Source of the DNA: Actinomycetes bacterium
GTDB taxonomy: Bacteria; Actinomycetota; Acidimicrobiia; Acidimicrobiales; WLNW01
NCBI GenBank assembly: GCA_031393535.1
Contig: JANMVY010000115.1
Coordinates: 1-27,568 of the forward strand
Direction of reading: 5' to 3'
DNA length: 27,568 nt
In this document: positions 1,744 to 17,074 of the stretch, one piece after another
Layout: every line of letters begins with the position of its first letter
How positions within the stretch are numbered: position 1 is the stretch's first letter
Notes under the pieces: model-generated
What the model was told of the DNA's origin: nothing
Database searches by the model: none
What the model saw: the letters and a program-made list of their open reading frames with translations, nothing else
Translations under genes and position numbers: made by a program

Positions 1744-3005
1744 GCCGCGGCGATCTTCGCGATCGCTCCCGAAAGCGACAGCGTGTAGAGCTCGCCTGCG
1801 TTGTCCTGCCCGAAGGACACGAGCGCACTCCTGCCCACGTTGATCCCGAGGCTCACGCGTTCGTACGTCTCCCCCTTTGGTACCAGCGCAAAGACGGTGC
1901 CCTCGCAGTAGTCGCCGAAGACGTACGCGCCTGCGAGCCCGGCAAGGGCTCGGCCCCGATAGACGAATCCGCCGATGACCGAGCACGAACCGTTGCTGCG
2001 GTCGTAGTCGAACACGGGTCCGACCGAACCCGCCGGAGCATCGCCGCGGAACTTGTGGCTGCCTTCGCGCAGGGGCCATTGCAGGTTCGCGCCTTTGCCG
2101 CGCGCGGGCGCCGGTAAGCGGTCGATCTCCTCGTAGGCGTTCTGACCGACATCGCCGATCCACAGGTCGCCGTTGGCGCGGTCGAAGCTCCAGCGCCACG
2201 GGTTGCGTACGCCGTAGAGCCAGATCTCGGGCCGCCCGCCGCCCGCTACGAAGGGGTTGTCGGGGGGGATCGAGTACGCGCCCGCGCCTCGGCCGCTCGG
2301 GTCGATACGCAACATCGAGCCGAGGAGCGTGTTCGTGTTCTGCGCGTTGGCGAACTGGTCGCCGGATCCACCTCCGTCGCCGAGGCCGAGCCACAAGAAG
2401 CCGTCGGGGCCGAACGCGATGTTGCCGCCGTTGTGGTTTCCGGCCGGTTGCACGGCCTGCAACACGATGCGTCGCGAGCCCATGTCGACGGTGTCACCGG
2501 TGACACCGAATTCGTCGATGCGCGTGTTGCTCGCGGAGTCGGTGTAGCTCGCGTACAACCGCCGGCCGTCGGGGGAGAACGCGATTCCGAGAAGACCTTT
2601 TTCGAAGTCGGTCGTCACGTCCGCTGCGATGTCGAGAATGGGCGCGCCGAGCACTCCGTCGGTGGCCAACGGGCGGACGCGACCGGCTCGCTCGGCGATG
2701 TAGCGCGCGTCGGTACCGGCGCGGGGGACGAGCACGAGCGGTGCGTTGGCGGTCGCGACGGGCGCGAGCGCGATCTTAGTCGCACGGACACCGGCCGCAG
2801 TGGCCACGGCGGGCGGGGTCGTGTCGGGTGAGGCGTTCGCTCGCGACGCGGTGGGCGCCACGCTGGTCGTGTTCGGCCGCGGGATCGTGGTCGCGACGGT
2901 GCCGGTCGGGGCGGTGACGACGCGCGGGCCGCCGCTGCAACCCACCGCAACCATCGCGAGCGCGAATACGGCGAACATCGCGCGCCGAGCGCGCCGGTGG
3001 CTCAT
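1740..3005 (-). CDS. PQQ-dependent glucose/sorbosone dehydrogenase (GSDH-family beta-propeller), probable lipoprotein
   Basis: 421 aa; signal peptide ending AVGC, Thr/Pro linker, EKGLLGIAFSPD, HNGGNIAFGPDGFLWLGLGDGG, YGVRNPWRWSFD and GDVGQNAYEEID motifs. Confidence 0.9.
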   Translation of the reverse strand: MSHRRARRAMFAVFALAMVAVGCSGGPRVVTAPTGTVATTIPRPNTTSVAPTASRANASPDTTPPAVATAAGVRATKIALAPVATANAPLVLVPRAGTDARYIAERAGRVRPLATDGVLGAPILDIAADVTTDFEKGLLGIAFSPDGRRLYASYTDSASNTRIDEFGVTGDTVDMGSRRIVLQAVQPAGNHNGGNIAFGPDGFLWLGLGDGGGSGDQFANAQNTNTLLGSMLRIDPSGRGAGAYSIPPDNPFVAGGGRPEIWLYGVRNPWRWSFDRANGDLWIGDVGQNAYEEIDRLPAPARGKGANLQWPLREGSHKFRGDAPAGSVGPVFDYDRSNGSCSVIGGFVYRGRALAGLAGAYVFGDYCEGTVFALVPKGETYERVSLGINVGRSALVSFGQDNAGELYTLSLSGAIAKIAAA

Positions 3006-3895
3006 CGGTCGATCCGGCGAATGAGGCCTTCTTGCACCACCGATGCCACGAGCACACCGTCACTGCGGAACACCGATCCGCGGGCCAGCCCTCGCCCGCC
3101 CGACGCAGCGGTGGTCTCCTGGTCATAGAGCAACCACGCGTCAGCCCGGAACGGTTGATGGAACCACATCGCGTGGTCGAGGCTCGCGAGCTGGATGCTC
3201 TCGTTGAGCGAACTCGTGCCGTGGGGGAGCAGGGTGGTGTCGAGCAGCGTCATATCGGACGCGTAGGTCAGCAGGCAGGTGTGCAAGACGTGGTCGTCGG
3301 GCAGTTTGCCGTCGGCGCGGAGCCACACCTGTTGGCGCATGGTGGACGTGCCGGCGCGCATGAACGGCAATCCGCTGGCGTAGCGCAGGTCGATCGCCCG
3401 CGGCCGCTCCCAGCGCTCGCCGATCCCCTCCGCGACGGGTGCCCATTGCGTCTTCCAGTCGGGCAACGACTCGGGAGCGGGCACCTCGGGCATGGTCAGT
3501 TGATGCTCGAACCCCGGCTCGTGCACGTGAAAGCTGGCTGCGAGGTTGAAGATGGCTCGACCGTGTTGGATGCCCACGACGCGGCGGGTGGTGAACGAAC
3601 GACCGTCGCGGATGCGGTCGACCTGATAGAGGATCGGCACTTTCGGATCGCCGGCCCGAAGGAAGTACGCGTGCAACGAGTGCACCGTGCGGTCGGGTTC
3701 GACGGTGCGGGCTGCGGCCACGAGTGCCTGCCCCGCGACTTGTCCGCCGAAGACCCGTTGGAGCGACTCGTCGGGGCTGCGCCCACGGAAGATGTTGACC
3801 TCGATCGCCTCGAGATCGAGCAGGCGGACCACGGCGTCGACCGCGGCCTGGGACTCGATTGCGTCGTCGGGCGGGGGCACGGGTGGTGGCTGCAC
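3002..3895 (-). CDS. tesB: Acyl-CoA thioesterase II
   Basis: FGGQVAGQAL, HSLHAYFL, DRIRDGRSF, YASDMTLL and ASLDHAMWFH double-hotdog motifs. Start placed at GTG 3895 (CATGAT box 6 nt upstream); GTG 3880 is an alternative. Confidence 0.93.
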   Translation of the reverse strand: MQPPPVPPPDDAIESQAAVDAVVRLLDLEAIEVNIFRGRSPDESLQRVFGGQVAGQALVAAARTVEPDRTVHSLHAYFLRAGDPKVPILYQVDRIRDGRSFTTRRVVGIQHGRAIFNLAASFHVHEPGFEHQLTMPEVPAPESLPDWKTQWAPVAEGIGERWERPRAIDLRYASGLPFMRAGTSTMRQQVWLRADGKLPDDHVLHTCLLTYASDMTLLDTTLLPHGTSSLNESIQLASLDHAMWFHQPFRADAWLLYDQETTAASGGRGLARGSVFRSDGVLVASVVQEGLIRRIDR

Positions 3896-3964
3896 TCGCC
3901 CATCATGCCGGGCGCGCGTCGACGTGGCGCCGCGCGAGGCCGACGGCTCGTTACCCTCGGAGGC

Positions 3965-4396
3965 GTGCTCAGCAGCCTCTGGTCGCGCTACGGCGCCAAG
4001 CTCTTCCGCTATTTCGGCGTCTCTGCGTTCAATGTCGTCTTCGGGCAGAGCCTCCTCGCGCTCTTCTACAGCGTGTTCGACTGGCGGGCCTGGCTCGCGA
4101 ACCTTCTTGCGGTGTGCATCAGTGCCGGACCCGCATACTGGATGAGCCGGCACTGGGTGTGGGAGCAGTCGGGTTCGCACAGCGTGCGTTCGGAGATTGC
4201 GCCGTTCTGGGGGCTCGCGTTGCTCGGCCTCGGCATCTCCACCGTCACCACGTCGTTCGCCGACCATCGCTGGCACACGGGTCTCGCCGTGCAGGCCGCG
4301 AGCATCGCGGCGTTCGGGTCCGTGTGGGTGTTCAAGTTCTTCGTGCTCGAACACCTGATGTGGAAGCAGCCGACCGAGGTGCCGTCCACACCATGA
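3965..4396 (+). CDS. GtrA-family small membrane protein (about 4 TM)
   Basis: 143 aa from GTG 3965 with TACCCT (3952-3957) 7 nt upstream. KLFRYFGVSAFNVV start, ANLLAVCIS...YWMSRHWVW core and four hydrophobic segments are typical of GtrA. Its TGA overlaps the next ATG. Confidence 0.82.
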   Translation: MLSSLWSRYGAKLFRYFGVSAFNVVFGQSLLALFYSVFDWRAWLANLLAVCISAGPAYWMSRHWVWEQSGSHSVRSEIAPFWGLALLGLGISTVTTSFADHRWHTGLAVQAASIAAFGSVWVFKFFVLEHLMWKQPTEVPSTP

Positions 4397-5076
4397 CTGC
4401 GCCGCCCGCGACGCCCGCGACGCCCGCGCCGCCCGCGCCGCCCGCGATGCCCGCGCACCTGCGCGTGTTCGCCGAGGCGGCGCGTGGGTTCATGCCTTCT
4501 GACGAAGGGCTCGCACTGCACGACGCTGCGGCTTCGGTACAGGTGGCCGGGCCGTTCCTCGAGATCGGTGGCTACTGCGGCAAGTCCGCGGTGTATCTCG
4601 GCGCGGCGGCCCGTGCGCAGGCCCGGGTTCTCTACTCCGTCGACCATCATCGTGGCTCCGAGGAGAACCAGCCCGGGTGGCAGTGGCACGAACCCGATCT
4701 CGTCGACGAGCGTGTCGGCCGCATCGACACGATGCCGGCCTTTCGGCGCACAATCTTCGACGCGGGGCTCGAGGACACGGTGGTCGCGGTGGTGGGCGAC
4801 TCGCCGACGGTGGCCGCGCACTGGGCCACGCCGCTCGCCCTGCTGTTCATCGACGGGGGCCACGGTCACGAGCCGGCACATCGCGACTACGAACGTTGGG
4901 CGCCCCACGTGCGGCTCGGGGGCACGCTGGTGATTCATGACGTGTTCCCGAACCCGACTGACGGCGGCCGCCCGCCATTCGAGATCTATTGTCGGGCGCT
5001 CGACTCCGCCGCGTTCACCGAGGTTGTCGCCGTCGGCTCGCTTCGCGTGTTGCGCCGCACCCGCCCGGGTATCTGA
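4393..5076 (+). CDS. meT1: Class I SAM-dependent methyltransferase (Methyltransf_24), MeT1-like MMP 1-O-methyltransferase
   Basis: GFMPxDEG, LEIGGYCGKS, VDHHRGSEENQPGW, LFIDGGH and IHDVFPxPxDGGRPPF match, in order, the motifs I recall for mycobacterial MeT1. The neighbouring manT/mmpH-like genes support the call. Confidence 0.8.
   Translation: MTAPPATPATPAPPAPPAMPAHLRVFAEAARGFMPSDEGLALHDAAASVQVAGPFLEIGGYCGKSAVYLGAAARAQARVLYSVDHHRGSEENQPGWQWHEPDLVDERVGRIDTMPAFRRTIFDAGLEDTVVAVVGDSPTVAAHWATPLALLFIDGGHGHEPAHRDYERWAPHVRLGGTLVIHDVFPNPTDGGRPPFEIYCRALDSAAFTEVVAVGSLRVLRRTRPGI
4399..4455 (+). repeat. In-frame 9-bp tandem repeat, GCG-(C/A)(C/T)G-CCC x6 plus GCG, encoding APP-ATP-ATP-APP-APP-AMP-A
   Basis: Read directly: gcgccgccc gcgacgccc gcgacgccc gcgccgccc gcgccgccc gcgatgccc gcg. 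Confidence 0.9.
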
Positions 5077-5095
5077 GTTGACCGCCGCACGGACC

Positions 5096-5115
5096 CGCGC
5101 GCCACGTGTCGCGCG
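5096..5115. terminator. Possible bidirectional hairpin between convergent meT1 and mmpH
   Basis: CGCGCG-ccacgtgt-CGCGCG in the 47-nt gap between converging stops. There is no U-tract and the sequence is low-complexity. Confidence 0.3.
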
Positions 5116-5123
5116 CGCGCCCG

Positions 5124-6188
5124 TCAGTGTTCGCGGCTGAGGTCCTCGTCGCTGATGACGATCTCGGGCAGCGTGTCGTGGTGCGAGAACAAGCCGCTCG
5201 CCGGTGTTGCTCCTGCGAGAGCGTCGGCGCACAGCACCACCGCGGCCGCGGTGTACGACGACATCTCGCCATCGGGGTAATGCACGACTTCGGGATACAC
5301 GGTGCCGGTCCAGTAACGGCCGTCGTCGAGGCGCATCTGCTGCGCCCAACCGAACAGCTCGCGTGCACTTGCGTCGTTGCCCACACCTAGTTGCGCGAGC
5401 GCGAGCTCGCACGTCTCGGCTGCTGTTACCCAGGGGCGGTCGCTGACGCACTTCACGCCGTGGCCGGGGAGGATGAAGCTGTGCCAGCGTGCTGCGAGAT
5501 GCGCGATTGCTTCGTCGCCCGAGATCGCGCCCGACAACACCGGGTAGTACCAGTCCATCGCCCAACGGTTCTTCGGCGCGAACGCTCCGTCGGGTCGCGC
5601 CCGGATGACTGCGGCGAGGCTCGCGAGGCTGAGCTCCCAGTCGAGGCGCTCCTCGCCCAGCTGATGCGCGACCGCGAGCGCACACCGCAACGAATGGCAG
5701 ATCGATGACGAACCGGTGAGCAGCGCGAACGACCACGGTGTTCCGTCGGGGTGGCGTGCCCAGATGATCTCGCCGCGTGGCGTCTGGAGGTCGAGCACGA
5801 AATCGAAGGCCCGCTCGACTGTGGGCCACAGGGACTCGAGAAATCCGCGATCGTGCGTGAGGAGCCAGTGGTGCCAGACGCCCGCGGCGACGTATGCAGT
5901 GACGTTCGCTTCGAGTTTGTCCTGTTCGACTCGATCGGCGAGGTAGTAGTGATGCCAGGCGCCGTCGGGCCGCTGCATTCTCATCAGCCAGTCGAACGCT
6001 CGCTCGGCTTCGGACCGGCGGCCGCCGACGAGCAACGCCATCGCGGCCTCGACGTGGTTCCACGGATCCGCGTGGCCGCCGGGGAACCACGGGATCATGC
6101 CGTTGGGTAGCTGGAGTGCGGCGATCGTGTCGACGGTGGCCGCGAGCTCGTCGGCCCGCAGGATGCCGGGGACCTCAAGCGAGGGCAT
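5124..6188 (-). CDS. mmpH: (alpha/alpha)6-barrel glycoside hydrolase, MmpH-like (often auto-annotated prenyltransferase/squalene oxidase repeat protein)
   Basis: 354 aa; IPWFPGGHADPWNHVEAAMAL, YVAAGVWHH, ALLTGSSSI, RWAMDWYYPVL, CVSDRPWVTAAETCEL and YWTG match my recollection of mycobacterial MmpH. Start overlaps the upstream methyltransferase stop. Confidence 0.75.
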   Translation of the reverse strand: MPSLEVPGILRADELAATVDTIAALQLPNGMIPWFPGGHADPWNHVEAAMALLVGGRRSEAERAFDWLMRMQRPDGAWHHYYLADRVEQDKLEANVTAYVAAGVWHHWLLTHDRGFLESLWPTVERAFDFVLDLQTPRGEIIWARHPDGTPWSFALLTGSSSICHSLRCALAVAHQLGEERLDWELSLASLAAVIRARPDGAFAPKNRWAMDWYYPVLSGAISGDEAIAHLAARWHSFILPGHGVKCVSDRPWVTAAETCELALAQLGVGNDASARELFGWAQQMRLDDGRYWTGTVYPEVVHYPDGEMSSYTAAAVVLCADALAGATPASGLFSHHDTLPEIVISDEDLSREH

Positions 6189-6948
6189 ACGTGCTCCGTG
6201 AGGTGGCCGGCGCGGCCGCGGTGCGAATGGGTTTGGTGGCGTAGACGATCAGGCTTTTACCGATCATCGGGTTGAGCACCCGGTCGGCGAGCCGCGTCGA
6301 CCGTGGTGCCTTTGCGATGTCCCAGCACAGGAACCGGTGGTAGGCGCGCACGAGCGTGTGGTCGTCGATGGGGCGGTTCGGCCCCACGGCGCAGCGAAGC
6401 CACCAGTAGGGCGCATGCAGCCCGTGCGCATGGTGCGATCGACCGGGAACGAGGCCGGCGGAGCGCATCTTCTCTCGCACCTCGGTTCTCGCGTAGATGC
6501 GGACGTGTCCGCCCGGCACCGCCGGCGCGTGGTAGTCGTCGGACAAAAGCCAGCACACCTTCTCGGCGAGTCGGGCCGGGACGGTGACCGCCATGGTGCC
6601 ACCGGGCCTCAGCACCCGAGCGAGCTCGGCGAAGGCCGCATCGTCATCGGGGATGTGCTCGAGCACCTCGCTCGCAAGCACGCGATCGAATGAGTTGTCC
6701 GGGAACGGTAGACGTGTCGCGTCGCCGTTCACCGACTGACAGGTGACTCCGTCGGGTAACTCACTGGCTTCGCGCATGCCTGCGAACACCGCGTGAACCT
6801 GCTGCAACTCGGTGAGGCCGAGGTCGCACGCGATCACGCTGGCACCGCGACGCATCGCCTCGTATGCGTGGCGGCCGAAGCCACAACCGAGGTCGAGCAT
6901 GCGTTCACCGGCGCGTAGACCGAGACGGTCGTAGTCGACGGTGATCAT
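6175..6948 (-). CDS. Class I SAM-dependent methyltransferase (Methyltransf_11), putative MMP 3-O-methyltransferase
   Basis: 257 aa; motif I MLDLGCGFGRH, DATRLPFPDNSFD, SEVLEHIPDD and LRPGG. MITVDYDRL start and GGHVRIY match the methyltransferase that sits between manT and mmpH. ATGA coupling to manT. The 3-O activity is inferred from context. Confidence 0.85.
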   Translation of the reverse strand: MITVDYDRLGLRAGERMLDLGCGFGRHAYEAMRRGASVIACDLGLTELQQVHAVFAGMREASELPDGVTCQSVNGDATRLPFPDNSFDRVLASEVLEHIPDDDAAFAELARVLRPGGTMAVTVPARLAEKVCWLLSDDYHAPAVPGGHVRIYARTEVREKMRSAGLVPGRSHHAHGLHAPYWWLRCAVGPNRPIDDHTLVRAYHRFLCWDIAKAPRSTRLADRVLNPMIGKSLIVYATKPIRTAAAPATSRSTYALA

Positions 6949-8219
6949 GCGCGGCGACCGTGACTCGCCGCCCCGTGCTCGTCGAGCACGGCCCGGTAGT
7001 GCTCGACGGTGCGTGCCGCGGTGTGCTTCCAGCTCCAGTTATCGACCACGCGTTGGCGACCCGCCGCGCCGACGCGTGCCCGCAGCACTGGGTCGTCGAG
7101 CGCGATGCGCATCATCGCGGCGAGCGCTTCGGCGTCACCCGGGGGCACGAGGAAGCAGGTCTCGTTGTGGATGCCTGCTACTTCGGGCAACGCGCCCCCG
7201 GTGGTCGCGAGCAGCGGTACGCCGGACGACATCGCTTCGACCGCAGGCAGGGAGAAACCCTCGTACAGCGAAGGTACGACCGCGAGCGTGCATTCGCTGT
7301 AGAGCTCGACGATGCGCTGATCGCTCACGCCGTGCACGAACGTGACGATGTCGTTCAGGCCGTACTGCTCGATGAGCTGTGGCGTGCGACTCTCACTGCG
7401 GGGCTTGCCGATGATGACGAGCTCGACGTTGCGTTCGGTGCGCAGCTTCGCCATGGCGTCGAGGAGGTACTTGAGGCCCTTGAGCGTGACGTCGCTCGAG
7501 GTGGTGCACAGGATGCGGCCCGGTGCCCGTTCGACACCCGGAACCGGTTTGAAGATGTCGGGATCGACCCCCACGGGCACGACGTGCATGCGATCGAGCG
7601 GCACCTGGTAGTCGGCATGGATATCGTGCTTCGACGACTCCGACACCGTGAGCACGTGCGTCATGCGCCGCGCGACCTGCGACTGCATCTTGGTGAACGC
7701 GTACCAGCGGCGCTTGCCGACTTTGTCCCAAAGCGAGTGCGCGTGCTCGAGCTCGAGACGACGGTCGACGCTGATCGGGTGATGGATCGTCTCGAGGATC
7801 GGCCAGCCCGCGCGTTGCAGGGCGAGGATGCCCCAGCCGAGGGTCTGGTTGTCGTGGACGAGGTCGAACTCGTGGCGACGCTTGCGTAGCGCACCGTAGG
7901 CCCGCCAGCTGAAGGCCATCGGTTCGGGGAAATTGCCGGTCGCGAAGGACGCGGCCTCGACCACGTCGTACACCGATTTCCATTCGAAGAACCGCGGCTT
8001 ACGGGCCGGGAAGAAGTCGTTGTAGGTGTCGAGGCTCGGCAACTTGTGCAGCGCGACCCGCGGATCGACCTCGGGATAGGGCTGACCCGCGAAGATCTCG
8101 ATGTGATGGCCGAGGTCGGCGAGCGCTTTCGCGAGGTGGCGGACGTAGACACCCTGGCCGCCCACGGTGGGCTTGCCTCGATAGGTCAAGAGCGCGAGGC
8201 GGAGTGCGGAGTCGGTCAC
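6945..8219 (-). CDS. manT: GT4 glycosyltransferase, ManT-like alpha-(1->4)-mannosyltransferase
   Basis: LALLTYRGKPTVGGQGVYVRHL, GQPYP, FPEPxxFS, DLVHDNQxLG, HHPI, RRWYxFxxMQ, LKG and PSLYEGFSLPAVEAM (GT4 ExxxxxxxE). Start set at GTG 8219, where the family N-terminus begins. TACCAT -10-like box at 8293-8298. Confidence 0.8.
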   Translation of the reverse strand: MTDSALRLALLTYRGKPTVGGQGVYVRHLAKALADLGHHIEIFAGQPYPEVDPRVALHKLPSLDTYNDFFPARKPRFFEWKSVYDVVEAASFATGNFPEPMAFSWRAYGALRKRRHEFDLVHDNQTLGWGILALQRAGWPILETIHHPISVDRRLELEHAHSLWDKVGKRRWYAFTKMQSQVARRMTHVLTVSESSKHDIHADYQVPLDRMHVVPVGVDPDIFKPVPGVERAPGRILCTTSSDVTLKGLKYLLDAMAKLRTERNVELVIIGKPRSESRTPQLIEQYGLNDIVTFVHGVSDQRIVELYSECTLAVVPSLYEGFSLPAVEAMSSGVPLLATTGGALPEVAGIHNETCFLVPPGDAEALAAMMRIALDDPVLRARVGAAGRQRVVDNWSWKHTAARTVEHYRAVLDEHGAASHGRRA

Positions 8220-8354
8220 GGGCTGTCCGGTCGGGTTGGGCCGTTGCGTACGGCGTTGCACCGACGATGACCGCGAGAGAATACCGGCTTGGATGGTACC
8301 GGCCCGACGGCACGGTCGCGCCACGGAGTCGGTGACCGAGCGCGGCGAGCGGGG

Positions 8355-9824
8355 TCAGCCGGCGCGGCGACGAGCCGCCGTCTGTGCGGCGGCGAGCAAC
8401 ACGAGAGACAGCACGAGCATGGGCCAGGCGCCGACGCGGGTCGCGATGGTTTGACCGTCGCGCAGTTCGACGGTGTCGTAGAGGACGGCTTGCTCACCGA
8501 TTCGGGTTCGTTGGCGTACGGCCCCGCCGGGTTCGATCACCGCGGAAAATCCGGTGGGTGCGGCCTGGAGCACGAAGCGCCCGGTCTCGAGTGCCCGTAG
8601 CCGCGACGACGCGATCTGCTGGGCCTGGACGACCGTGAGCCAATACGATGCGCCGTTCGTCGGATTGAGCAGTATCTGCCCACCATTGCCGATCGCGTCG
8701 CGGCTGCGGTGGTCGAAGAAGATCTCCCAGGAGATCGACACGCCCACACGACCGAACGGTGTGTCGAGCACTGCGGGTTCGGTGCCCGGGCGAGCGTCGT
8801 GGGGAGGTAGGCCCGACACACCCAGCCCTTCCAGCAGACCGCGTAGTGGTACGAACTCGCCGAAGGGAACCGTGCGCACCTTGTCGTAGCGATCGATCGT
8901 CACACCGTCGGGTGTGATGACCTCGGCGTAGTTGACCGTTGCCGTGTCGTCGACCGCGTAGAACCAACCGGGGATGATCGTGGCGTGCAACGTGCGCGCC
9001 AGGTCGGCCAGCGTCGCCGCGGCGTCGTCGGCGTAGAGGTACCGGCGCGAGCGCACCTCGTCGAGGTACGGCGGCCTGGGGTTCACGACGTTCTCGGGCC
9101 ACAACACGAGGTCGACGGGGCGGTCGATCGTGCGCGTCGCGGCCACGTGACGTTCGAACACGAGCGGGTTGTCCTCGGGGTTGGCGCGTGTGCGTTGCTT
9201 GCCCCCCCCCTGCACGATGGCCACATCGATCGTGCGCACGACGTGGCCACGCGGCGCCAGGTCCGCCCATCCGACGCACAGCACGACGATCGTGGCGCCC
9301 ACACCGACCACACGCCAGTTCCGCTCGCGGGCCGCCGCGAGTGCGAGCCCGACAACGACGACCAACGCGACGAGCAGCAGGGAGCCGAGCGTCCGGACCA
9401 CCGGAGCGAGTGGCGAAGCGGCCTGGCTCATCGCGAGCGTTGCGAGTGGCACGCCGCCGAATGGCCAACTCCAGCGAACCAACTCGGCCAACGTGATAGC
9501 GCCCACGAGGCCCACTCGTCGTGGGTTGCCATATGCGGGCACGACCATGACCGCGAGCCCGAACGCCATCGCGGCTGCGACCTGTGCGATCACCCAACCC
9601 GGCGGCGTGAGGTCGAGCATCCAGATCGTCGCCGGAAACAGCCAGCAGGCCGCCACGAGCCACATGCGACGAGCCCGCACGAGCGGTGGTTGCTCGGCCA
9701 GCAGGCGGTCGACGAGCGCGATGCCGACGAACGCGAGCGGCCACCAGCCCCATGGCGGCAGCGACGCGGCGATGCAACCACCGGCGAGCGCGCAGCGTGC
9801 AGCGATACGGGCTCGGGTCGACAT
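8355..9824 (-). CDS. lnt: Apolipoprotein N-acyltransferase (Lnt fold) with an E-K-S triad
   Basis: Multi-TM N-terminus (SLPPWGWWPLA, WPFGGVPL) and nitrilase domain: VQG, LWPEN (Glu), YDKxxxVPFGEFVP (Lys), ISWE where Lnt normally has ICxE, QQIASSRLRALETGR, APTGFSAVI. The start is uncertain (ATG 9824, 9857 or GTG 9878). Confidence 0.9.
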   Translation of the reverse strand: MSTRARIAARCALAGGCIAASLPPWGWWPLAFVGIALVDRLLAEQPPLVRARRMWLVAACWLFPATIWMLDLTPPGWVIAQVAAAMAFGLAVMVVPAYGNPRRVGLVGAITLAELVRWSWPFGGVPLATLAMSQAASPLAPVVRTLGSLLLVALVVVVGLALAAARERNWRVVGVGATIVVLCVGWADLAPRGHVVRTIDVAIVQGGGKQRTRANPEDNPLVFERHVAATRTIDRPVDLVLWPENVVNPRPPYLDEVRSRRYLYADDAAATLADLARTLHATIIPGWFYAVDDTATVNYAEVITPDGVTIDRYDKVRTVPFGEFVPLRGLLEGLGVSGLPPHDARPGTEPAVLDTPFGRVGVSISWEIFFDHRSRDAIGNGGQILLNPTNGASYWLTVVQAQQIASSRLRALETGRFVLQAAPTGFSAVIEPGGAVRQRTRIGEQAVLYDTVELRDGQTIATRVGAWPMLVLSLVLLAAAQTAARRRAG

Positions 9825-9932
9825 GCGACGCGCCAGGCTAAACCGCGCCGCGAGCATGTGCTTCACAAACGACCACACGCGTGGTTCACCACTGCGACAC
9901 CTGGCGATGACGCAAGAGTCACCCGTGTGAGC

Positions 9933-10382
9933 TCAGAGCCGCCGACCGCAGACGGGCCACGGTGCCCGGCCGCGTTCGCTGTAGAGGGCGCGCGCCATGA
10001 CGTCCTGCCACCAGGGGTCGGCCTCGGCCGGGTCGACACCGACCAGCCATTCGAAGTGGCGTGCCGCGACCCCGTCCCATGTGCTGCGGTTGAACTGGTA
10101 TGCCCCGCGGAAGGTGCCGGTGTGGTCGACGATCGTGTAGTCGCCACCCGACTCGCAACGCCGTAGTGCGGCCAGTTGCGCGCCCGTGAGCACGTGCTCG
10201 TACGGCTCGGATACTGCGGCCACGAACGCGAACTGCTCGGGGGTGCAGGCGGTCGCCGCGAGGATGATGCCGAGGCCGAACAGGAAACCGAAGCATCGCC
10301 CGAAGCGTCGAATGCGCACCTCTGCGGAAGCAGGCCGATCGTGCTCGTTCGTGGCGCCAGTGGCTGTGACGTGGTGCTGCAT
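9933..10382 (-). CDS. Rpf-like transglycosylase-domain protein, probable lipoprotein
   Basis: 149 aa; CESGGDY...GAYQF...TW...WPVC keeps the catalytic Glu and both Rpf cysteines. Hydrophobic segment ends in LAATAC. SD GAGGAGG (10394-10400) lies 11 nt before ATG 10382; GTG 10319 is an alternative start. Confidence 0.85.
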   Translation of the reverse strand: MQHHVTATGATNEHDRPASAEVRIRRFGRCFGFLFGLGIILAATACTPEQFAFVAAVSEPYEHVLTGAQLAALRRCESGGDYTIVDHTGTFRGAYQFNRSTWDGVAARHFEWLVGVDPAEADPWWQDVMARALYSERGRAPWPVCGRRL

Positions 10383-10573
10383 ACGTGGTGTGGCCTCCTC
10401 GGACAGCGATGTCCGACAGTGGTCAGGGGCGTGGTGGCAGGGGTTGGTGACGCGCGCGAGTTCCAGGCCGAGGGAGATTGGCCAGGCGTCGACTCGAGGG
10501 CGACTACGGAGGACAAGCGCGAGCAAGGCTCAAGCGCCACCAATCCCGTGGACCTATGGTGTCAGTGGCGGTG

Positions 10574-10604
10574 ACTCTAGCTTTTTTTCGTCACCGATTC
10601 GCAA
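10574..10604 (-). promoter_or_regulatory. Putative housekeeping-sigma promoter of the rpf-like gene: TTGCGA-19 nt-TAGAGT
   Basis: Minus strand reads TTGCGA atcggtgacgaaaaaaagc TAGAGT within a noticeably AT-richer intergenic stretch. Confidence 0.5.
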
Positions 10605-10692
10605 TACGGGCAGTATTCCTCTATGCCGTCAGTCACTTTCATCACAAGTCGTTGCGTGATCGCCGTGTCACATCGGGTCGAACGGCCGACCT

Positions 10693-12054
10693 TCAGCGTG
10701 TGCCGCGTGCCCGTGTCGCGGTTTCACGGGCTGCCCGCACGAGCGCGGGAATACCGATGCCGCGATATGCCGCGCCGGTGACCATGATGCCCGGCGCTTC
10801 ATCGCGAAGAGCAGCGGTGAGTTCGTCGATGCGCTCGATGTGGCCGGGCGTGTACTGAGGGAACGAGGCCGGCCACCGGCTCACGCGCACCTCGACCGGC
10901 TCGCCGCGCAGATGCATGATCGCGCGCAGCTCGTCGAGCATTGCGCGGACGAGCGCATGGTCATCGAGCGCGAGCGCCGATTCGTTTCCGTAGTGCCCGG
11001 CGGACGCGCGCACGATCGCATGCTCGCCCTTGTCGAGATGGGGCCACTTCGTCGATGACCACGAGCACGCGGTGAGAGTCAGATGCTCGGGTTTGGGCAC
11101 GAGGAAGCCGCTCGCGTCGAGTGGCACGCCGATTGCGTCGCGTGCGAACGCCATGGTGACGAGCGCAACCCCGGCGTAATCGATGTTCGACAGTTGTCGC
11201 GCGGTGAGTGGCGCGACATCGCGCAGCACGCGTGCGGTGACGTACGCGGGTGTGGCGAACACCACCGCATCGGCGCGTGTTCCGTCGACCACCCAGCCTG
11301 CGTTGTCGCGTTCGATGTGGGTGACCTCGCGATCGCGGAAAACTTTGCGTTCCAGGGCTTTCTCGAGCTCACGGACGAGTCGACTCATGCCATCGGGGGG
11401 CGCCAAGAACACTGGTGCGCCAGGGTTCGCCTGCAGTGTGGCGCGTCGTTGCGTGTCGAGCGCGCGGATGAGGCTTGCGTCGGTTCGCGCCGCGGCCGCG
11501 ATCTGCGGCGCACCAGCCGCGAGGCTCAGCCGGTCGGCGTCGCCCGCATAGATTCCGCCGAGCAACGGGTCGACGAGTCGCTCGAGAACTTCGTCGCCGA
11601 GGCGCCGGCGTACGAGTGAACCGAGCGACTCGTCACCGTCGGGCATTGCGTGGTCGACGATGCGGTCGAGGTCGCGCGCCGCGATCGTGACCGCATCGGG
11701 CGACACGATGCCCGACGCGCGCAAGGCGTCGAGATCGAGCGGTACGCCGAGCAGGTTGGGTGTCGGAATGCCGCGCAACTCACCGCGTGTGTAGATGTAC
11801 GCGGTACCCGACGCGGGCGAGATGAGCTCGTCGCCGAAGCCGAGCTCGCGGCTCAGCTCGACGGCCCACGGCACGCGTGCAAGGAAAGCGTCGGCGCCGC
11901 AATCGACCGCGGGGAGCCCCGCGAACGGTGTGGTGCGAATCTTGCCTCCGAGCCGGTCATCGGCTTCGTAGAGCGCGACGTCGACTCCGGCGCGGGCGAG
12001 GTCGTACGCGGTTGTGAGCCCGGCGATCCCGCCACCGACGACGATCACGCGCAT
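10693..12054 (-). CDS. hemG: HemY/HemG FAD-dependent protoporphyrinogen/coproporphyrinogen III oxidase
   Basis: VIVVGGGIAGLTTAY (FAD binding), GGKIRT, DCGADAFL, PLLGGIYAGD, GFLVP and PQYTPGH. GGAGG SD (12063-12067) upstream of ATG 12054. Lies downstream of hemE. Confidence 0.93.
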   Translation of the reverse strand: MRVIVVGGGIAGLTTAYDLARAGVDVALYEADDRLGGKIRTTPFAGLPAVDCGADAFLARVPWAVELSRELGFGDELISPASGTAYIYTRGELRGIPTPNLLGVPLDLDALRASGIVSPDAVTIAARDLDRIVDHAMPDGDESLGSLVRRRLGDEVLERLVDPLLGGIYAGDADRLSLAAGAPQIAAAARTDASLIRALDTQRRATLQANPGAPVFLAPPDGMSRLVRELEKALERKVFRDREVTHIERDNAGWVVDGTRADAVVFATPAYVTARVLRDVAPLTARQLSNIDYAGVALVTMAFARDAIGVPLDASGFLVPKPEHLTLTACSWSSTKWPHLDKGEHAIVRASAGHYGNESALALDDHALVRAMLDELRAIMHLRGEPVEVRVSRWPASFPQYTPGHIERIDELTAALRDEAPGIMVTGAAYRGIGIPALVRAARETATRARGTR

Positions 12055-12076
12055 GGAAAACACCTCCGGATGTTGC

Positions 12077-13111
12077 TCAACGGTCGAGCGGTGAAATGCG
12101 TCCTTCGCGATGGACCAGTTCGACGACGCGTTCGAGGATCGACGGGTCGGTCTCGGGTTGCACACCGTGGCCGAGGTTGAACACGTGGCCGGGGTGACCG
12201 TCGTTGCGGGCGAGCACGTCGCGTACCTCGGCTTCGACCACGGGCCACGGTGCGAGCACCGCTGCGGGGTCGAGGTTGCCCTGCAATGCGACTCCGGCGG
12301 GAACGCGGACGCGGGCGTCGTCGAGATGCACGCGCCAGTCGACGCCGACGACATCGGCGCCCGCCTCGGCCATGGAGCCGAGCAGTTCGCCCGTATCGAC
12401 ACCGAAATGGATTCGTGGCACGCCGAGATCGGCCATCGCGGCGAGCACTTTCGCGCTCGCAGGCATCACATAGGTGCGGTAGTCCTGGCGGTGCAAGGCG
12501 CCCGCCCACGAGTCGAACAACTGGATCGCGCGCGCACCTGCCGTGACCTGTGAACGCAGCGATGCGATGGCGATGTCGGCGAGCCGATCGAGCAGCGCGA
12601 ACCACAGCGTGGGCTCGCCGCGCATCATGGCCTTGGTCCGGCCGTACGTGCGCGACGGGCCACCTTCGATGAGGTAGCTCGCGACGGTGAAGGGTGCGCC
12701 TGCGAAACCGATGAGCGGGACCGTGAGCTCACGGACGAGGTTGCGCACCGTCTCGATGACATAGGGGGTGTCGATGTCGGGTTCGAGCGGACGGAGACGA
12801 TCGAGATCGGCTGCGCGCGTGAACGGCACCGCGATGACGGGGCCGGTGCCAGGGGCGACGTCGACGCCGAAGCCGATGGCATGCACCGGTACGACGATGT
12901 CGGAGTAGAGGATTGCTGCATCGACTCCATAGCGGCGAACTGGTTGCAGCGTGATCTCGGTCGCCAGATCGGGGGTCTTGATGGCGTCGAGGATGCTGCC
13001 CGGCCCGCGAATGGCGCGGTACTCCGGCAACGACCGGCCGGCCTGGCGCATGAACCAGACGGGTACGTGGTCGTGGGGCTCGCTGCGGCAGGCCGAAAGG
13101 AACGCGCTCAC
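12077..13111 (-). CDS. hemE: Uroporphyrinogen decarboxylase
   Basis: [53 protein letters not shown] and FNLGHG. TAGGGT -10 (13118-13123) lies 6 nt before the GTG. Confidence 0.97.
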
Positions 13112-16338: not shown

Positions 16339-17010
16339 TCAGTCGGCGACGGTGACGAGCAGACGATCGGAGGCGTACGCGTCGAGCTGCACCTCGCGCC
16401 CGTTGATCTGGATGTACATGTCTCCGTGCGGTACCGACGACTGCACCATGCCGGTGCAACCGGGGAGGACCTCGACTCGCTCGAGGTAGTCGAGCATGCC
16501 GGGCGCGAATTCGAGCGCTTCGGGAATACGTGTGACGGTGAACATGCGGCCGACGCTCACGGAGCGGAGCAGTTGCATGGTCTCGGCGTGGTAGTCGCTG
16601 CCGGGAATGGGGTTGCCGTGCGGGCAGGTGGTGGGTTCGCCCAGCATGCGGACCATCGCGGCCTCGACGACGGGGGAGATGACGTGCTCCCACTTACCCG
16701 CCTCGACGTGCGCATCGGACCACGACAGCGAAAGCACATCGGTGAGGAACCGTTCGGCGAGTCGATGACGGCGCACGACGCTCTCGGCGAGCACGCGGCC
16801 CTCGGTCGTGAGCGTGATGTAGGTACCGATCGCGACGAGCCCTTCAGCCTCGAGTCGGTGGATCATCTCGGACACAGAGGGCCGCGAGACGCTCAGCCGC
16901 TCGGCGATGCGCGCCTGGATGACATCGAGCGAGTCCTCGTTGAGCTCGAAAATTGCTTCGCAATACTCCTCGTAGGAACGATGGAACGCGCCAGTTCGAA
17001 CGGAAGCCAT
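16339..17010 (-). CDS. DtxR/IdeR/MntR-family metal-dependent regulator with C-terminal FeoA/SH3-like domain
   Basis: EEYCEAIFEL, HTH (IAERLSVSRPSVSEMIHRL), VRRHRLAERFL, EAGKWEH and PTTCPHGNPIPG. ATG 17010 has TAGACT (17018-17023) 7 nt upstream. Confidence 0.92.
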   Translation of the reverse strand: MASVRTGAFHRSYEEYCEAIFELNEDSLDVIQARIAERLSVSRPSVSEMIHRLEAEGLVAIGTYITLTTEGRVLAESVVRRHRLAERFLTDVLSLSWSDAHVEAGKWEHVISPVVEAAMVRMLGEPTTCPHGNPIPGSDYHAETMQLLRSVSVGRMFTVTRIPEALEFAPGMLDYLERVEVLPGCTGMVQSSVPHGDMYIQINGREVQLDAYASDRLLVTVAD

Positions 17011-17074
17011 GAATGGGAGTCTACGGCCCGCGCCGCCCGTGTCCCAGGGCGGCGGCCTTGATCGCAACGGCGAG

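What the first reader, a model, noticed from the sequence alone, without database searches (positions are those of the whole stretch)
4393..8219. Complete methylmannose-polysaccharide (MMP)-type gene set in a probably non-mycobacterial actinobacterium
Seen: three tightly coupled minus-strand genes (GT4, type-11 methyltransferase, alpha/alpha-barrel hydrolase) converge on a type-24 methyltransferase. Known: mycobacterial MMP is made by the alpha-1,4-mannosyltransferase ManT, the endomannosidase MmpH (which cuts mature chains into primers, giving self-priming replication), the 1-O-methyltransferase MeT1 and a presumed 3-O-methyltransferase. The motifs here follow those proteins in order, as I recall them. 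Inference: this lineage, which looks Acidimicrobiia-like, makes an MMP-like acyl-CoA-binding polysaccharide. MMP is documented chemically in mycobacteria and a few other actinomycetes; I know of no report for this class. Automated annotation would hide it as glycosyltransferase, two methyltransferases and a prenyltransferase.
Basis: partly seen in the sequence, partly recalled or inferred. Interest (0 to 1): 0.8.

Follow-up and report, generated by a model that had tools for sequence, protein, structure and literature searches.

The report
Methylmannose polysaccharide genes in Acidimicrobiales
An uncultured freshwater-sediment actinobacterium of the order Acidimicrobiales carries intact counterparts of all four genes that mycobacteria use to build, cap and recycle a small methylated mannose polymer; almost every genome of its order has them, so this copy is ordinary for its lineage, although published work does not describe the polymer there.

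Summary
Window 4393-8324 holds MeT1 (+ strand) converging on ManT, an MT11 methyltransferase and MmpH (- strand, with 4- and 14-nt overlaps). ManT, MmpH and MeT1 match the solved M. hassiacum proteins at E 7e-118, 1e-104 and 3e-69. The MT11 gene is the pMeT3 orthologue by synteny and reciprocal best hit. All four are clean reciprocal best hits with a Mycobacterium genome, and gene order and orientation are the same. Every near-invariant family residue is kept except one conservative V-to-I change in ManT.

The contig belongs to an Acidimicrobiales MAG; its nearest named relatives are Acidimicrobiales. MmpH was found in about 93 of 94 near-complete genomes of that order, in an all-or-none pattern by family in the other Acidimicrobiia orders, and in about 12% of the remaining Actinomycetota sampled.

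Four features set this lineage apart:
- MmpH Asp50 is always Asn.
- A GtrA-like gene is coupled to meT1, with tesB divergent from it.
- A Ser-type Lnt homologue lies upstream of manT.
- The FAS-I marker domain was not found.

[quoted passage not shown] This scan has already reported the same gene set on other DNA, in at least 46 genomes, including five Acidimicrobiia and several Proteobacteria.

Verdict: a new member of a known kind, of moderate interest. The polymer itself is unproven.

The parts
4393..5076 (+). meT1: MMP 1-O-methyltransferase orthologue (Methyltransf_24, 227 aa). Residues 1-24 form a Pro/Ala-rich extension.
   Evidence: Matches PDB 6g7d (M. hassiacum MeT1) at E 2.8e-69 over residues 25-224. 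It is the only hit for the mycobacterial MeT1 in the window's own genome. It keeps 40 of 40 near-invariant family columns. Its ATG overlaps the stop codon of the GtrA-like gene as ATGA.
5124..6188 (-). mmpH: MMP endo-alpha-1,4-mannosidase orthologue, an (alpha/alpha)6 barrel of 354 aa.
   Evidence: Matches PDB 7qsj (MmpH) at E 1.4e-104. It is the only hit for the mycobacterial MmpH in the window's own genome. Asp47, Trp49, Glu262, Glu265, Met215 and Tyr219 are kept, and Asp50 is Asn. It keeps 51 of 51 near-invariant columns.
6175..6948 (-). pmeT3: putative MMP 3-O-methyltransferase orthologue (Methyltransf_11, 257 aa).
   Evidence: Pfam E 2.3e-23. It is a reciprocal best hit with the methyltransferase that lies between manT and mmpH in a Mycobacterium genome: 284 bits against 49 for the next hit, and 270 against 57 in the other direction. 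It sits between ManT and MmpH in 70 of 71 Acidimicrobiales loci and 15 of 15 other loci. The AF2 model has pLDDT 92, and its nearest solved folds are the sugar O-methyltransferases RebM and AtmM.
6945..8219 (-). manT: alpha-1,4-mannosyltransferase orthologue (GT4, 424 aa from GTG 8219; the longest ORF reaches 8324).
   Evidence: Matches PDB 7qsg (M. hassiacum ManT) at E 6.8e-118, with the next PDB hit at 1e-28. Lys240, the Glu313-Gly-Phe-x-Leu motif and the GGQG loop are kept. It is a reciprocal best hit at 388 bits against 78 for the next. It keeps 74 of 75 near-invariant columns.
3905..4396 (+). GtrA-like small membrane protein, translationally coupled to meT1. This accessory gene is specific to the lineage, and its role is inferred only.
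   Evidence: Pfam GtrA_DPMS_TM, E 1.3e-9. It lies next to meT1 on the same strand in 51 of 73 Acidimicrobiales loci and 0 of 14 other actinobacterial loci.
3002..3832 (-). tesB: acyl-CoA thioesterase II, divergent from the gtrA-meT1 pair (neighbour; functional link inferred).
   Evidence: NCBIfam TIGR00189 at 298 bits, above its cut-off. It lies divergently within 2.5 kb of meT1 in 45 of 66 Acidimicrobiales loci and 0 of 14 others. The pairing holds even where insertions separate the meT1 module from mmpH.
8355..9878 (-). Lnt homologue directly upstream of manT, with Ser at the catalytic Cys position (neighbour; functional link inferred).
   Evidence: NCBIfam TIGR00546 at 179 bits. An Lnt homologue lies upstream of manT on the same strand in 49 of 60 Acidimicrobiales loci and 0 of 14 others. 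Ser aligns with E. coli Cys387 and is present in all 53 linked homologues.

Best explanation
The locus is the Acidimicrobiales version of the mycobacterial MMP biosynthesis and recycling cluster. By homology, ManT extends alpha-1,4 mannosides from GDP-mannose. The MT11 protein (pMeT3) methylates the 3-OH of the added mannoses with SAM. MeT1 caps the reducing end by 1-O-methylation. MmpH cuts mature chains into short oligomannosides that prime new chains, which gives self-primed, partly conservative replication. All four proteins lack membrane segments, so the product is most likely a cytoplasmic, lipid-binding polymethylated mannan of roughly 10-14 units. Shown here: orthology, synteny, retention of the active-site residues (except Asp50, which is Asn), vertical conservation in the order, and lack of the FAS-I marker domain. 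Inferred: enzyme specificities, the polymer and its role. Because FAS-I was not found, the role cannot be the FAS-I modulation proposed for mycobacteria. More likely the polymer buffers long-chain acyl-CoA or fatty acids in general, which would fit the conserved tesB neighbour.
For: PDB matches to the characterised M. hassiacum enzymes are ManT 6.8e-118, MmpH 1.4e-104 and MeT1 2.8e-69. L087 was identified as Mycobacterium because its MmpH scores 707 bits against 7qsj. Reciprocal best hits hold for all four genes by wide margins. The order ManT-pMeT3-MmpH with MeT1 convergent is the same as in L087 and matches the locus-tag order MHAS_04402-04405 given in PMC9883506. The catalytic residues are kept: MmpH Asp47 and Glu262, ManT Lys240 and Glu313. 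Near-invariant columns kept are 40/40, 51/51, 43/43 and 74/75. No TM-like segment was found in the four proteins. MmpH occurs in 29 of 31 relatives and in about 93 of 94 near-complete genomes of the order. The three-gene tree puts Acidimicrobiales on one side of a branch, with SH-aLRT 85. The FAS-I marker PF08354 was found in 0 of 26 genomes, while the control C. glutamicum was positive.
Against: No chemistry exists for any Acidimicrobiia. pMeT3 activity has not been shown even in mycobacteria (PMC9883506). MmpH Asp50, whose Ala variant is nearly inactive in M. hassiacum, is Asn here and in all 93 Acidimicrobiia sequences examined. The lineage-specific membrane neighbours (GtrA-like protein, Lnt homologue) have no counterpart in the mycobacterial model. 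Protein identity to the characterised enzymes is only 47-58%, so the acceptor, chain length or methylation pattern could differ.
Confidence: 0.8

Rival explanations
1. The same enzyme set makes a polymer that differs in structure or location from mycobacterial MMP. It might have another chain length or methylation pattern, carry acyl groups as in the Streptomyces acetylated MMP, or be assembled on the membrane or attached to it through the GtrA-like protein and the Ser-type Lnt homologue.
For: The GtrA-like gene is coupled to meT1 in 51 of 73 Acidimicrobiales loci, the Lnt homologue lies upstream of manT in 49 of 60, and neither is found in the other actinobacterial loci. The Lnt homologue has Ser at the Cys387 position in all 53 linked copies. 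Asn replaces Asp50 in MmpH throughout the class. PMC9883506 states that S. griseus makes an acetylated MMP and that ManT activity was first detected in membrane fractions.
Against: No acyltransferase gene lies within the cluster in the window. The four core proteins have no membrane segments. All other substrate-site residues of MmpH and ManT are identical to those of the characterised enzymes. The neighbour conservation could simply reflect shared ancestry within one order.
Confidence: 0.15
2. The cluster is a salvage or catabolic system that takes up and degrades methylated mannans made by other organisms, rather than a biosynthetic system.
For: MmpH is a hydrolase, and some distant homologous clusters lie next to an ABC substrate-binding protein and an MFS transporter (L108).
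Against: Three of the four genes encode biosynthetic enzymes: a GT4 transferase and two SAM methyltransferases. No transporter, signal peptide or membrane segment accompanies the four genes in the window. In mycobacteria the hydrolase is itself part of biosynthesis (PMC9883506).
Confidence: 0.03
3. The contig is misbinned or contaminating DNA from a known MMP producer such as Mycobacterium or Streptomyces, so no taxonomic extension exists.
For: The genome is a fragmented MAG with 860 contigs, 83% completeness and 3.6% contamination.
Against: The closest MmpH homologues follow the genome's own taxonomy: 84-87% identity in the same genus, 71-73% in the same family and 50-70% in the same order. 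Identity to Mycobacterium and to the 7-10 Mb-genome genus is only 46-49%. Of the 80 nearest named loci, 63 are labelled Acidimicrobiia or Acidimicrobiales. The flanking Lnt, GtrA-like and TesB arrangement is found only in Acidimicrobiales loci.
Confidence: 0.01

Closest known systems
Mycobacterial MMP cluster manT-pmeT3-mmpH-meT1 (M. hassiacum MHAS_04402-04405; M. smegmatis MSMEG_6481-6484; Ripoll-Rozada 2019; Maranha 2023, PMC9883506)
   Same: The same four protein families are present as reciprocal best hits, at 47-58% identity. The order ManT-pMeT3-MmpH with meT1 convergent is the same. The mapped ManT residues are kept, as are the mapped MmpH residues except Asp50. All four proteins are predicted to be soluble.
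   Different: MmpH Asp50 is Asn. Three lineage-specific neighbours are present: a GtrA-like gene coupled to meT1, a divergent tesB, and a Ser-type Lnt homologue upstream of manT. The FAS-I marker domain was not found in the host lineage. The cluster is near-universal in the order, whereas it is patchy among mycobacteria. No chemical evidence for the polymer exists.
Acetylated methylmannose polysaccharide (AMMP) of Streptomyces griseus, as cited in PMC9883506
   Same: It is a producer outside mycobacteria.
   Different: That polymer is acetylated. No acyltransferase gene is present in the window cluster. Protein identity to that group is only 46-59%.
Mycobacterial methylglucose lipopolysaccharide (MGLP)
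   Same: It is the other cytoplasmic polymethylated polysaccharide proposed to bind long-chain acyl-CoA, so it is a functional analogue.
   Different: It has a glucose backbone, 6-O-methylation, acyl decorations and unrelated genes. It was not examined here.
Ppm1/Ppm2 pairing in mycobacteria, in which the Lnt-domain membrane protein is adjacent or fused to polyprenol-phosphate-mannose synthase (general knowledge; not checked in a paper here)
   Same: An Lnt-family membrane protein is genetically linked to a soluble GDP-mannose-dependent glycosyltransferase.
   Different: The partner here is the GT4 ManT rather than the GT2 Ppm1. The Lnt homologue carries Ser in place of the catalytic Cys. No interaction was tested.

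Membership tests
MMP biosynthesis/recycling cluster (ManT, pMeT3, MmpH, MeT1) | All four proteins present as orthologues of the characterised mycobacterial proteins | tested here: met
   PDB hits are 6.8e-118 (ManT), 1.4e-104 (MmpH) and 2.8e-69 (MeT1). Reciprocal best hits with a Mycobacterium genome hold for all four, with margins of 367 vs 84 bits, 270 vs 57, and unique hits for the other two. The genome was identified as Mycobacterium by a 707-bit match to 7qsj.
MMP biosynthesis/recycling cluster (ManT, pMeT3, MmpH, MeT1) | Clustered gene order ManT-pMeT3-MmpH-MeT1 | tested here: met
   The window has the same order and orientation as the Mycobacterium locus L087, where MeT1 is also convergent. 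The core order is conserved in 70 of 71 Acidimicrobiales loci and 15 of 15 other loci.
MmpH endomannosidase | Putative catalytic acid Asp47 and catalytic base Glu262 (E262A is inactive) | tested here: met
   These are Asp41 and Glu258 in window numbering. Both are invariant in 106 sequences.
MmpH endomannosidase | The remaining mapped substrate-site residues (Trp49, Asp50, Glu265, Met215, Tyr219) | tested here: inconclusive
   Four of the five residues checked are kept. Asp50 is Asn here, in all 93 Acidimicrobiia sequences and in some other actinobacterial families, while Mycobacterium has Asp. D50A strongly lowers activity in M. hassiacum, and the authors could not decide between Asp47 and Asp50 as the acid. 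Asn101, Phe102, Thr163 and Trp315 were not checked one by one.
ManT alpha-1,4-mannosyltransferase (GT4, GT-B fold) | Lys240, Glu313 and the Gly314-Phe315-x-Leu317 donor-site residues, plus the glycine-rich loop | tested here: met
   The alignment to 7qsg shows DVxLKG, YEGFSLP and GGQGVY conserved; chain numbering is offset by 26 from the paper's numbering.
MeT1 1-O-methyltransferase | Close homology to the solved MeT1 and retention of the family-invariant residues | tested here: met
   The match to 6g7d is 236 bits over 200 residues. All 40 near-invariant columns are kept. The residues named in the 2019 paper could not be checked, because that paper is not held.
MMP biosynthesis/recycling cluster (ManT, pMeT3, MmpH, MeT1) | Product is an alpha-1,4-linked 3-O-methylmannose polymer with a 1-O-methyl reducing end | not testable with these tools
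   This needs polysaccharide extraction, GC-MS, ESI-MS and NMR from a cultured carrier of the cluster.
MMP biosynthesis/recycling cluster (ManT, pMeT3, MmpH, MeT1) | Enzyme specificities: GDP-mannose with methylmannoside acceptors, SAM with dimethylmannobiose, and MMP hydrolysis | not testable with these tools
   Recombinant enzyme assays are required.

The most novel reading that the evidence does not exclude
In Acidimicrobiales the MMP-type polymer is an ancestral core trait that works independently of FAS-I. It is assembled at the cytoplasmic face of the membrane by lineage-specific partners: a GtrA-like protein that tethers MeT1, and a catalytically altered (Cys-to-Ser) Lnt homologue that tethers ManT, as Ppm2 does for Ppm1. 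TesB ties the system to acyl-CoA turnover. The fixed Asp50-to-Asn change would identify Asp47 as the MmpH catalytic acid.
Probability: 0.25. Interest if true: 0.55.

Novelty: new member of a known kind. Interest (0 to 1): 0.35.

Why it matters
MMP is treated as a peculiarity of mycobacteria and a few actinomycetes, and is thought to modulate FAS-I. These results point to three consequences.

1. The full gene set is close to a core trait of Acidimicrobiales, an abundant and mostly uncultured group of soil, freshwater, marine, sponge and wastewater bacteria that includes Microthrixaceae. The FAS-I marker domain was not found in any of the 26 genomes searched. The polymer's general role therefore cannot be FAS-I control, and is more likely a broader handling of long-chain acyl-CoA or fatty acids.

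2. The natural, class-wide Asp50-to-Asn change in MmpH bears on an open mechanistic point in the 2023 structural paper: which aspartate is the catalytic acid.

3. Genera with cultured members (Iamia, Aquihabitans) are named among the MAGs that carry the cluster, so the prediction may be chemically testable, once the cluster is confirmed in the cultured strains.

For annotation, none of the four proteins has a specific NCBIfam model, so the cluster is invisible in standard annotation.

Tried and rejected
- The 2019 PNAS paper on MeT1 (DOI and PMC6338870) is not held, so the MeT1 residues named there could not be checked.
- The consensus promoter and terminator scan of 3700-10700 found nothing.
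- Complex prediction on the GtrA-like protein plus MeT1 gave no answer, with score 0.00 and no controls run. This is not evidence for or against binding.
- NCBIfam gave no specific model for any of the four proteins.
- No RNA run that holds the locus was listed, so expression was not assessed.
- The long gaps between mmpH and meT1 in some relatives hold unrelated insertions, not recurrent tailoring enzymes: SodC and DUF1214 in L032.
- Contamination from Mycobacterium or Streptomyces was considered and rejected, because identity falls off in step with the genome's own taxonomy.
- I could not name the non-Acidimicrobiia families in the genome search, because the handles are anonymous. Only the Mycobacterium-like one was identified, indirectly.
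Full report
**What is in the sequence**

Pfam finds four genes:
- a GT4 glycosyltransferase at 6945-8324(-);
- a Methyltransf_11 protein at 6175-6948(-);
- a 354-aa protein at 5124-6188(-), with only weak squalene-cyclase and GH95 hits;
- a Methyltransf_24 domain in the + strand frame that ends at 5076.

The ATG of the + strand gene is at 4393 and overlaps the stop codon of an upstream GtrA-like gene as ATGA. The three minus-strand genes overlap by 4 nt (ATGA at 6945-6948) and by 14 nt (6175-6188). The two stop codons at the convergent junction are 47 nt apart.

The locus is not an assembly artefact. Contigs assembled from other public runs span 4421-10058, 3159-6429 and 6400-10200 with at most 11 differences. 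Runs of a second study (freshwater sediment) hold 83-84% of the sampled words.

**Identity of the four proteins**

Against all PDB sequences:
- The GT4 protein matches 7qsg, the M. hassiacum ManT structure, at E 6.8e-118. The next entry scores 6e-28.
- The barrel protein matches 7qsj, deposited as "Methylmannose polysaccharide hydrolase (MmpH)", at 1.4e-104.
- The Methyltransf_24 protein matches 6g7d, the entry I take to be the M. hassiacum MeT1 structure, at 2.8e-69. It has no other hit.
- The Methyltransf_11 protein has no close solved relative. Its best sequence and fold matches are the sugar O-methyltransferases RebM (3bus) and AtmM (6uv6).

To test whether the Methyltransf_11 protein is the pMeT3 orthologue, I needed a mycobacterial locus. 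L087 (genome G168) encodes an MmpH that scores 707 bits against 7qsj, so it is a Mycobacterium in the broad sense. In L087 the order is ManT, a methyltransferase, MmpH, and then MeT1 convergent, exactly as in the window. This also matches the locus-tag order MHAS_04402 to 04405 given in PMC9883506.

Reciprocal best hits are clean in both directions:
- The four L087 proteins find only contig C408 as top hit in the window's own genome. Scores are 367 bits against 84 for the next (ManT), 270 against 57 (pMeT3), and unique hits for MmpH and MeT1.
- The window's ManT and MT11 proteins find the cluster genes in G168 at 388 bits against 78, and 284 against 49.

**Active sites**

I mapped the residues discussed in PMC9883506 onto the printed alignments.
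- MmpH: Asp47, Trp49, Glu262, Glu265, Met215 and Tyr219 are kept. They are invariant in 106 sequences.
- ManT: Lys240, Glu313-Gly-Phe-x-Leu and the glycine-rich loop are kept.
- Across alignments of 88-106 homologues, the window proteins keep 40/40 (MeT1), 51/51 (MmpH), 43/43 (pMeT3) and 74/75 (ManT, one Val-to-Ile) of the columns that are at least 98% conserved.
- None of the four proteins has a TM-like segment.

The one departure is MmpH Asp50, which is Asn here. It is Asn in all 93 Acidimicrobiia sequences examined. It is Asp in Mycobacterium and in the genus with 7-10 Mb genomes, and mixed in other families. The paper reports that both D47A and D50A are nearly inactive and leaves open which residue is the catalytic acid. 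The natural, class-wide Asn argues by inference for Asp47 as the acid and for residue 50 as a hydrogen-bonding partner of the sugar.

**Taxon**

The window is contig C408 of a MAG of 4.0 Mb, with 860 contigs, 83% completeness and 3.6% contamination. The 80 best loci from named genomes are 60-71% identical in MmpH. Of these, 54 are labelled Acidimicrobiales, 9 more Acidimicrobiia, and most of the rest only "Actinomycetota" or "actinobacterium". They include Microthrixaceae, Iamiaceae, Acidimicrobiaceae and Ca. Poriferisocius.

MmpH identity falls with the genome's own taxonomy: 84-87% in the same genus, 71-73% in the same family, 50-70% in the same order, and 46-49% to Mycobacterium. Misbinning from a known MMP producer is therefore excluded.

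**Distribution**

- Relatives: MmpH was found in 29 of 31 genomes, spanning 25 families of the order.
- Class sample (genomes at least 90% complete): 179 of 300 have it. Within the window's order that is about 93 of 94.
- Other orders of the class show an all-or-none pattern by family, for example 19/19 and 3/3 against 0/42 and 0/12. The 0/12 family has 1.1 Mb genomes.
- Phylum sample: 68 of 401 have it. That is 22/22 in the order, 2/8 elsewhere in the class, and about 43 of 370 (12%) in the rest, concentrated in a few families.
- Two of the positive genomes in that tally, G031 and G078, are unpublished. Only this tally rests on them.

A maximum-likelihood tree of concatenated ManT, pMeT3 and MmpH (56 loci, quick method) puts all Acidimicrobiales on one side of a branch, with SH-aLRT 85, and groups the other families by taxon. 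This fits long vertical descent within the order. The tree is unrooted and did not include the window itself, because its locus L001 was too short; same-order genomes stand in for it.

The MmpH family has 397 clusters at 50% identity with E up to 1e-30, among 1.84 billion representatives. Two distant members (33-38% identity) also lie in GT4-MT11-MmpH order, on low-GC contigs of 36% and 40% GC. One of these contigs also carries a Methyltransf_24 gene and COQ7, a ubiquinone gene. The set therefore probably exists outside Actinomycetota too.

**Lineage-specific context**

In Acidimicrobiales loci with enough flank:
- A GtrA-like gene sits directly upstream of meT1 on the same strand in 51 of 73.
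- tesB lies divergently within 2.5 kb of meT1 in 45 of 66.
- An Lnt homologue lies upstream of manT on the same strand in 49 of 60.

None of the three was found near the cluster in the loci from other actinobacterial families (0/14 for the GtrA-like gene and tesB; 0/14 for Lnt).

The tesB/gtrA-meT1 module stays together even where unrelated genes have been inserted between mmpH and meT1. The Lnt homologue has Ser at the position of E. coli Cys387. Ser is found there in all 53 linked homologues. It is the only Lnt hit in this incomplete MAG.

These links could reflect function or only shared ancestry within one order. I did not establish any physical interaction.

**FAS-I**

The FAS-I marker domain PF08354 was not found in any of 26 genomes (the window's own and 25 relatives, 16 of them at least 90% complete). 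The named control Corynebacterium glutamicum was positive. The role proposed for MMP in mycobacteria, relief of FAS-I product inhibition, cannot be transferred as such.

**Mechanism proposed**

By homology with the published model (PMC9883506):
- ManT elongates alpha-1,4 mannosides from GDP-mannose.
- pMeT3 3-O-methylates them.
- MeT1 caps the reducing end.
- MmpH cuts mature chains into primers.

Orthology, synteny and residue retention are shown here. The specificities, the polymer and its lipid-binding role are inferred.

**Comparison with what is known, and novelty**

PMC9883506 surveyed mycobacteria and a few related genera. It mentions MmpH and ManT homologues in Corynebacterium, Rhodococcus, Streptomyces (which makes an acetylated MMP) and Nocardia. 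No held paper combines methylmannose with Acidimicrobiia, and none of the 48 papers since 2019 that mention methylmannose addresses this class.

This scan has already reported the same gene set on other DNA, in at least 46 genomes. These include five Acidimicrobiia genomes, one with the same FAS-I observation, and several Proteobacteria. My results agree with those notes and were obtained independently.

The finding is a new member of a known kind, and ordinary for its lineage.
- the class-wide Asp50-to-Asn change in MmpH;
- the three lineage-specific neighbours of the cluster;
- the invariant Ser in the linked Lnt homologue.

Noticed in passing
window 8355-9878 (-): The Lnt homologue directly upstream of manT has Ser where E. 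coli Lnt has the catalytic Cys387 (ISWE against ICYE), while the Glu and Lys of the triad are kept. Ser is present in all 53 homologues linked to MMP clusters in Acidimicrobiales. No second Lnt was found in this 83%-complete MAG.
   Followed up: partly
window 3002-4396: A GtrA-like gene (3905-4396, +) overlaps meT1 by ATGA, and tesB (3002-3832, -) is divergent from it. This module is conserved in about 70% of Acidimicrobiales loci and was not found in the other actinobacterial MMP loci examined.
   Followed up: partly
window 4396-4456: The Pro/Ala-rich N-terminal extension of MeT1 is encoded by a short GC-rich repeat. Contigs from other runs carry in-frame deletions of 18 and 36 nt here, and word depth rises 4-5 fold. 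It looks like a variable low-complexity linker.
   Followed up: no
window 6175-6948 (-), residues 148-186: The pMeT3 family has invariant His148, His175, His178 and Cys186 and a PYWW motif in the region after the Rossmann core. These could form a metal site or a substrate lid. The geometry was not inspected in the model.
   Followed up: no
L060, L073, L084: Three MAGs labelled Acidobacteria or Chthoniobacterales carry clusters 61-69% identical to the window's. L073 nests inside the Acidimicrobiales clade of the tree. These are probably mislabelled bins or misbinned contigs.
   Followed up: partly
L107 (36% GC, TARA scaffold) and L108 (40% GC): MmpH homologues of 33-38% identity lie in the same GT4-MT11-MmpH order on low-GC contigs. 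L108 also has a Methyltransf_24 gene and COQ7 nearby, which suggests a non-actinobacterial, ubiquinone-making host.
   Followed up: partly
window 9933-13111 (-): Housekeeping neighbours lie beyond Lnt: an Rpf-like transglycosylase (9933-10526), a protoporphyrinogen-oxidase-like amine oxidase (10693-12402) and HemE (12077-13111). Further on are an Lhr helicase (17103-21569) and an IdeR/DtxR-type repressor (16339-17067).
   Followed up: no
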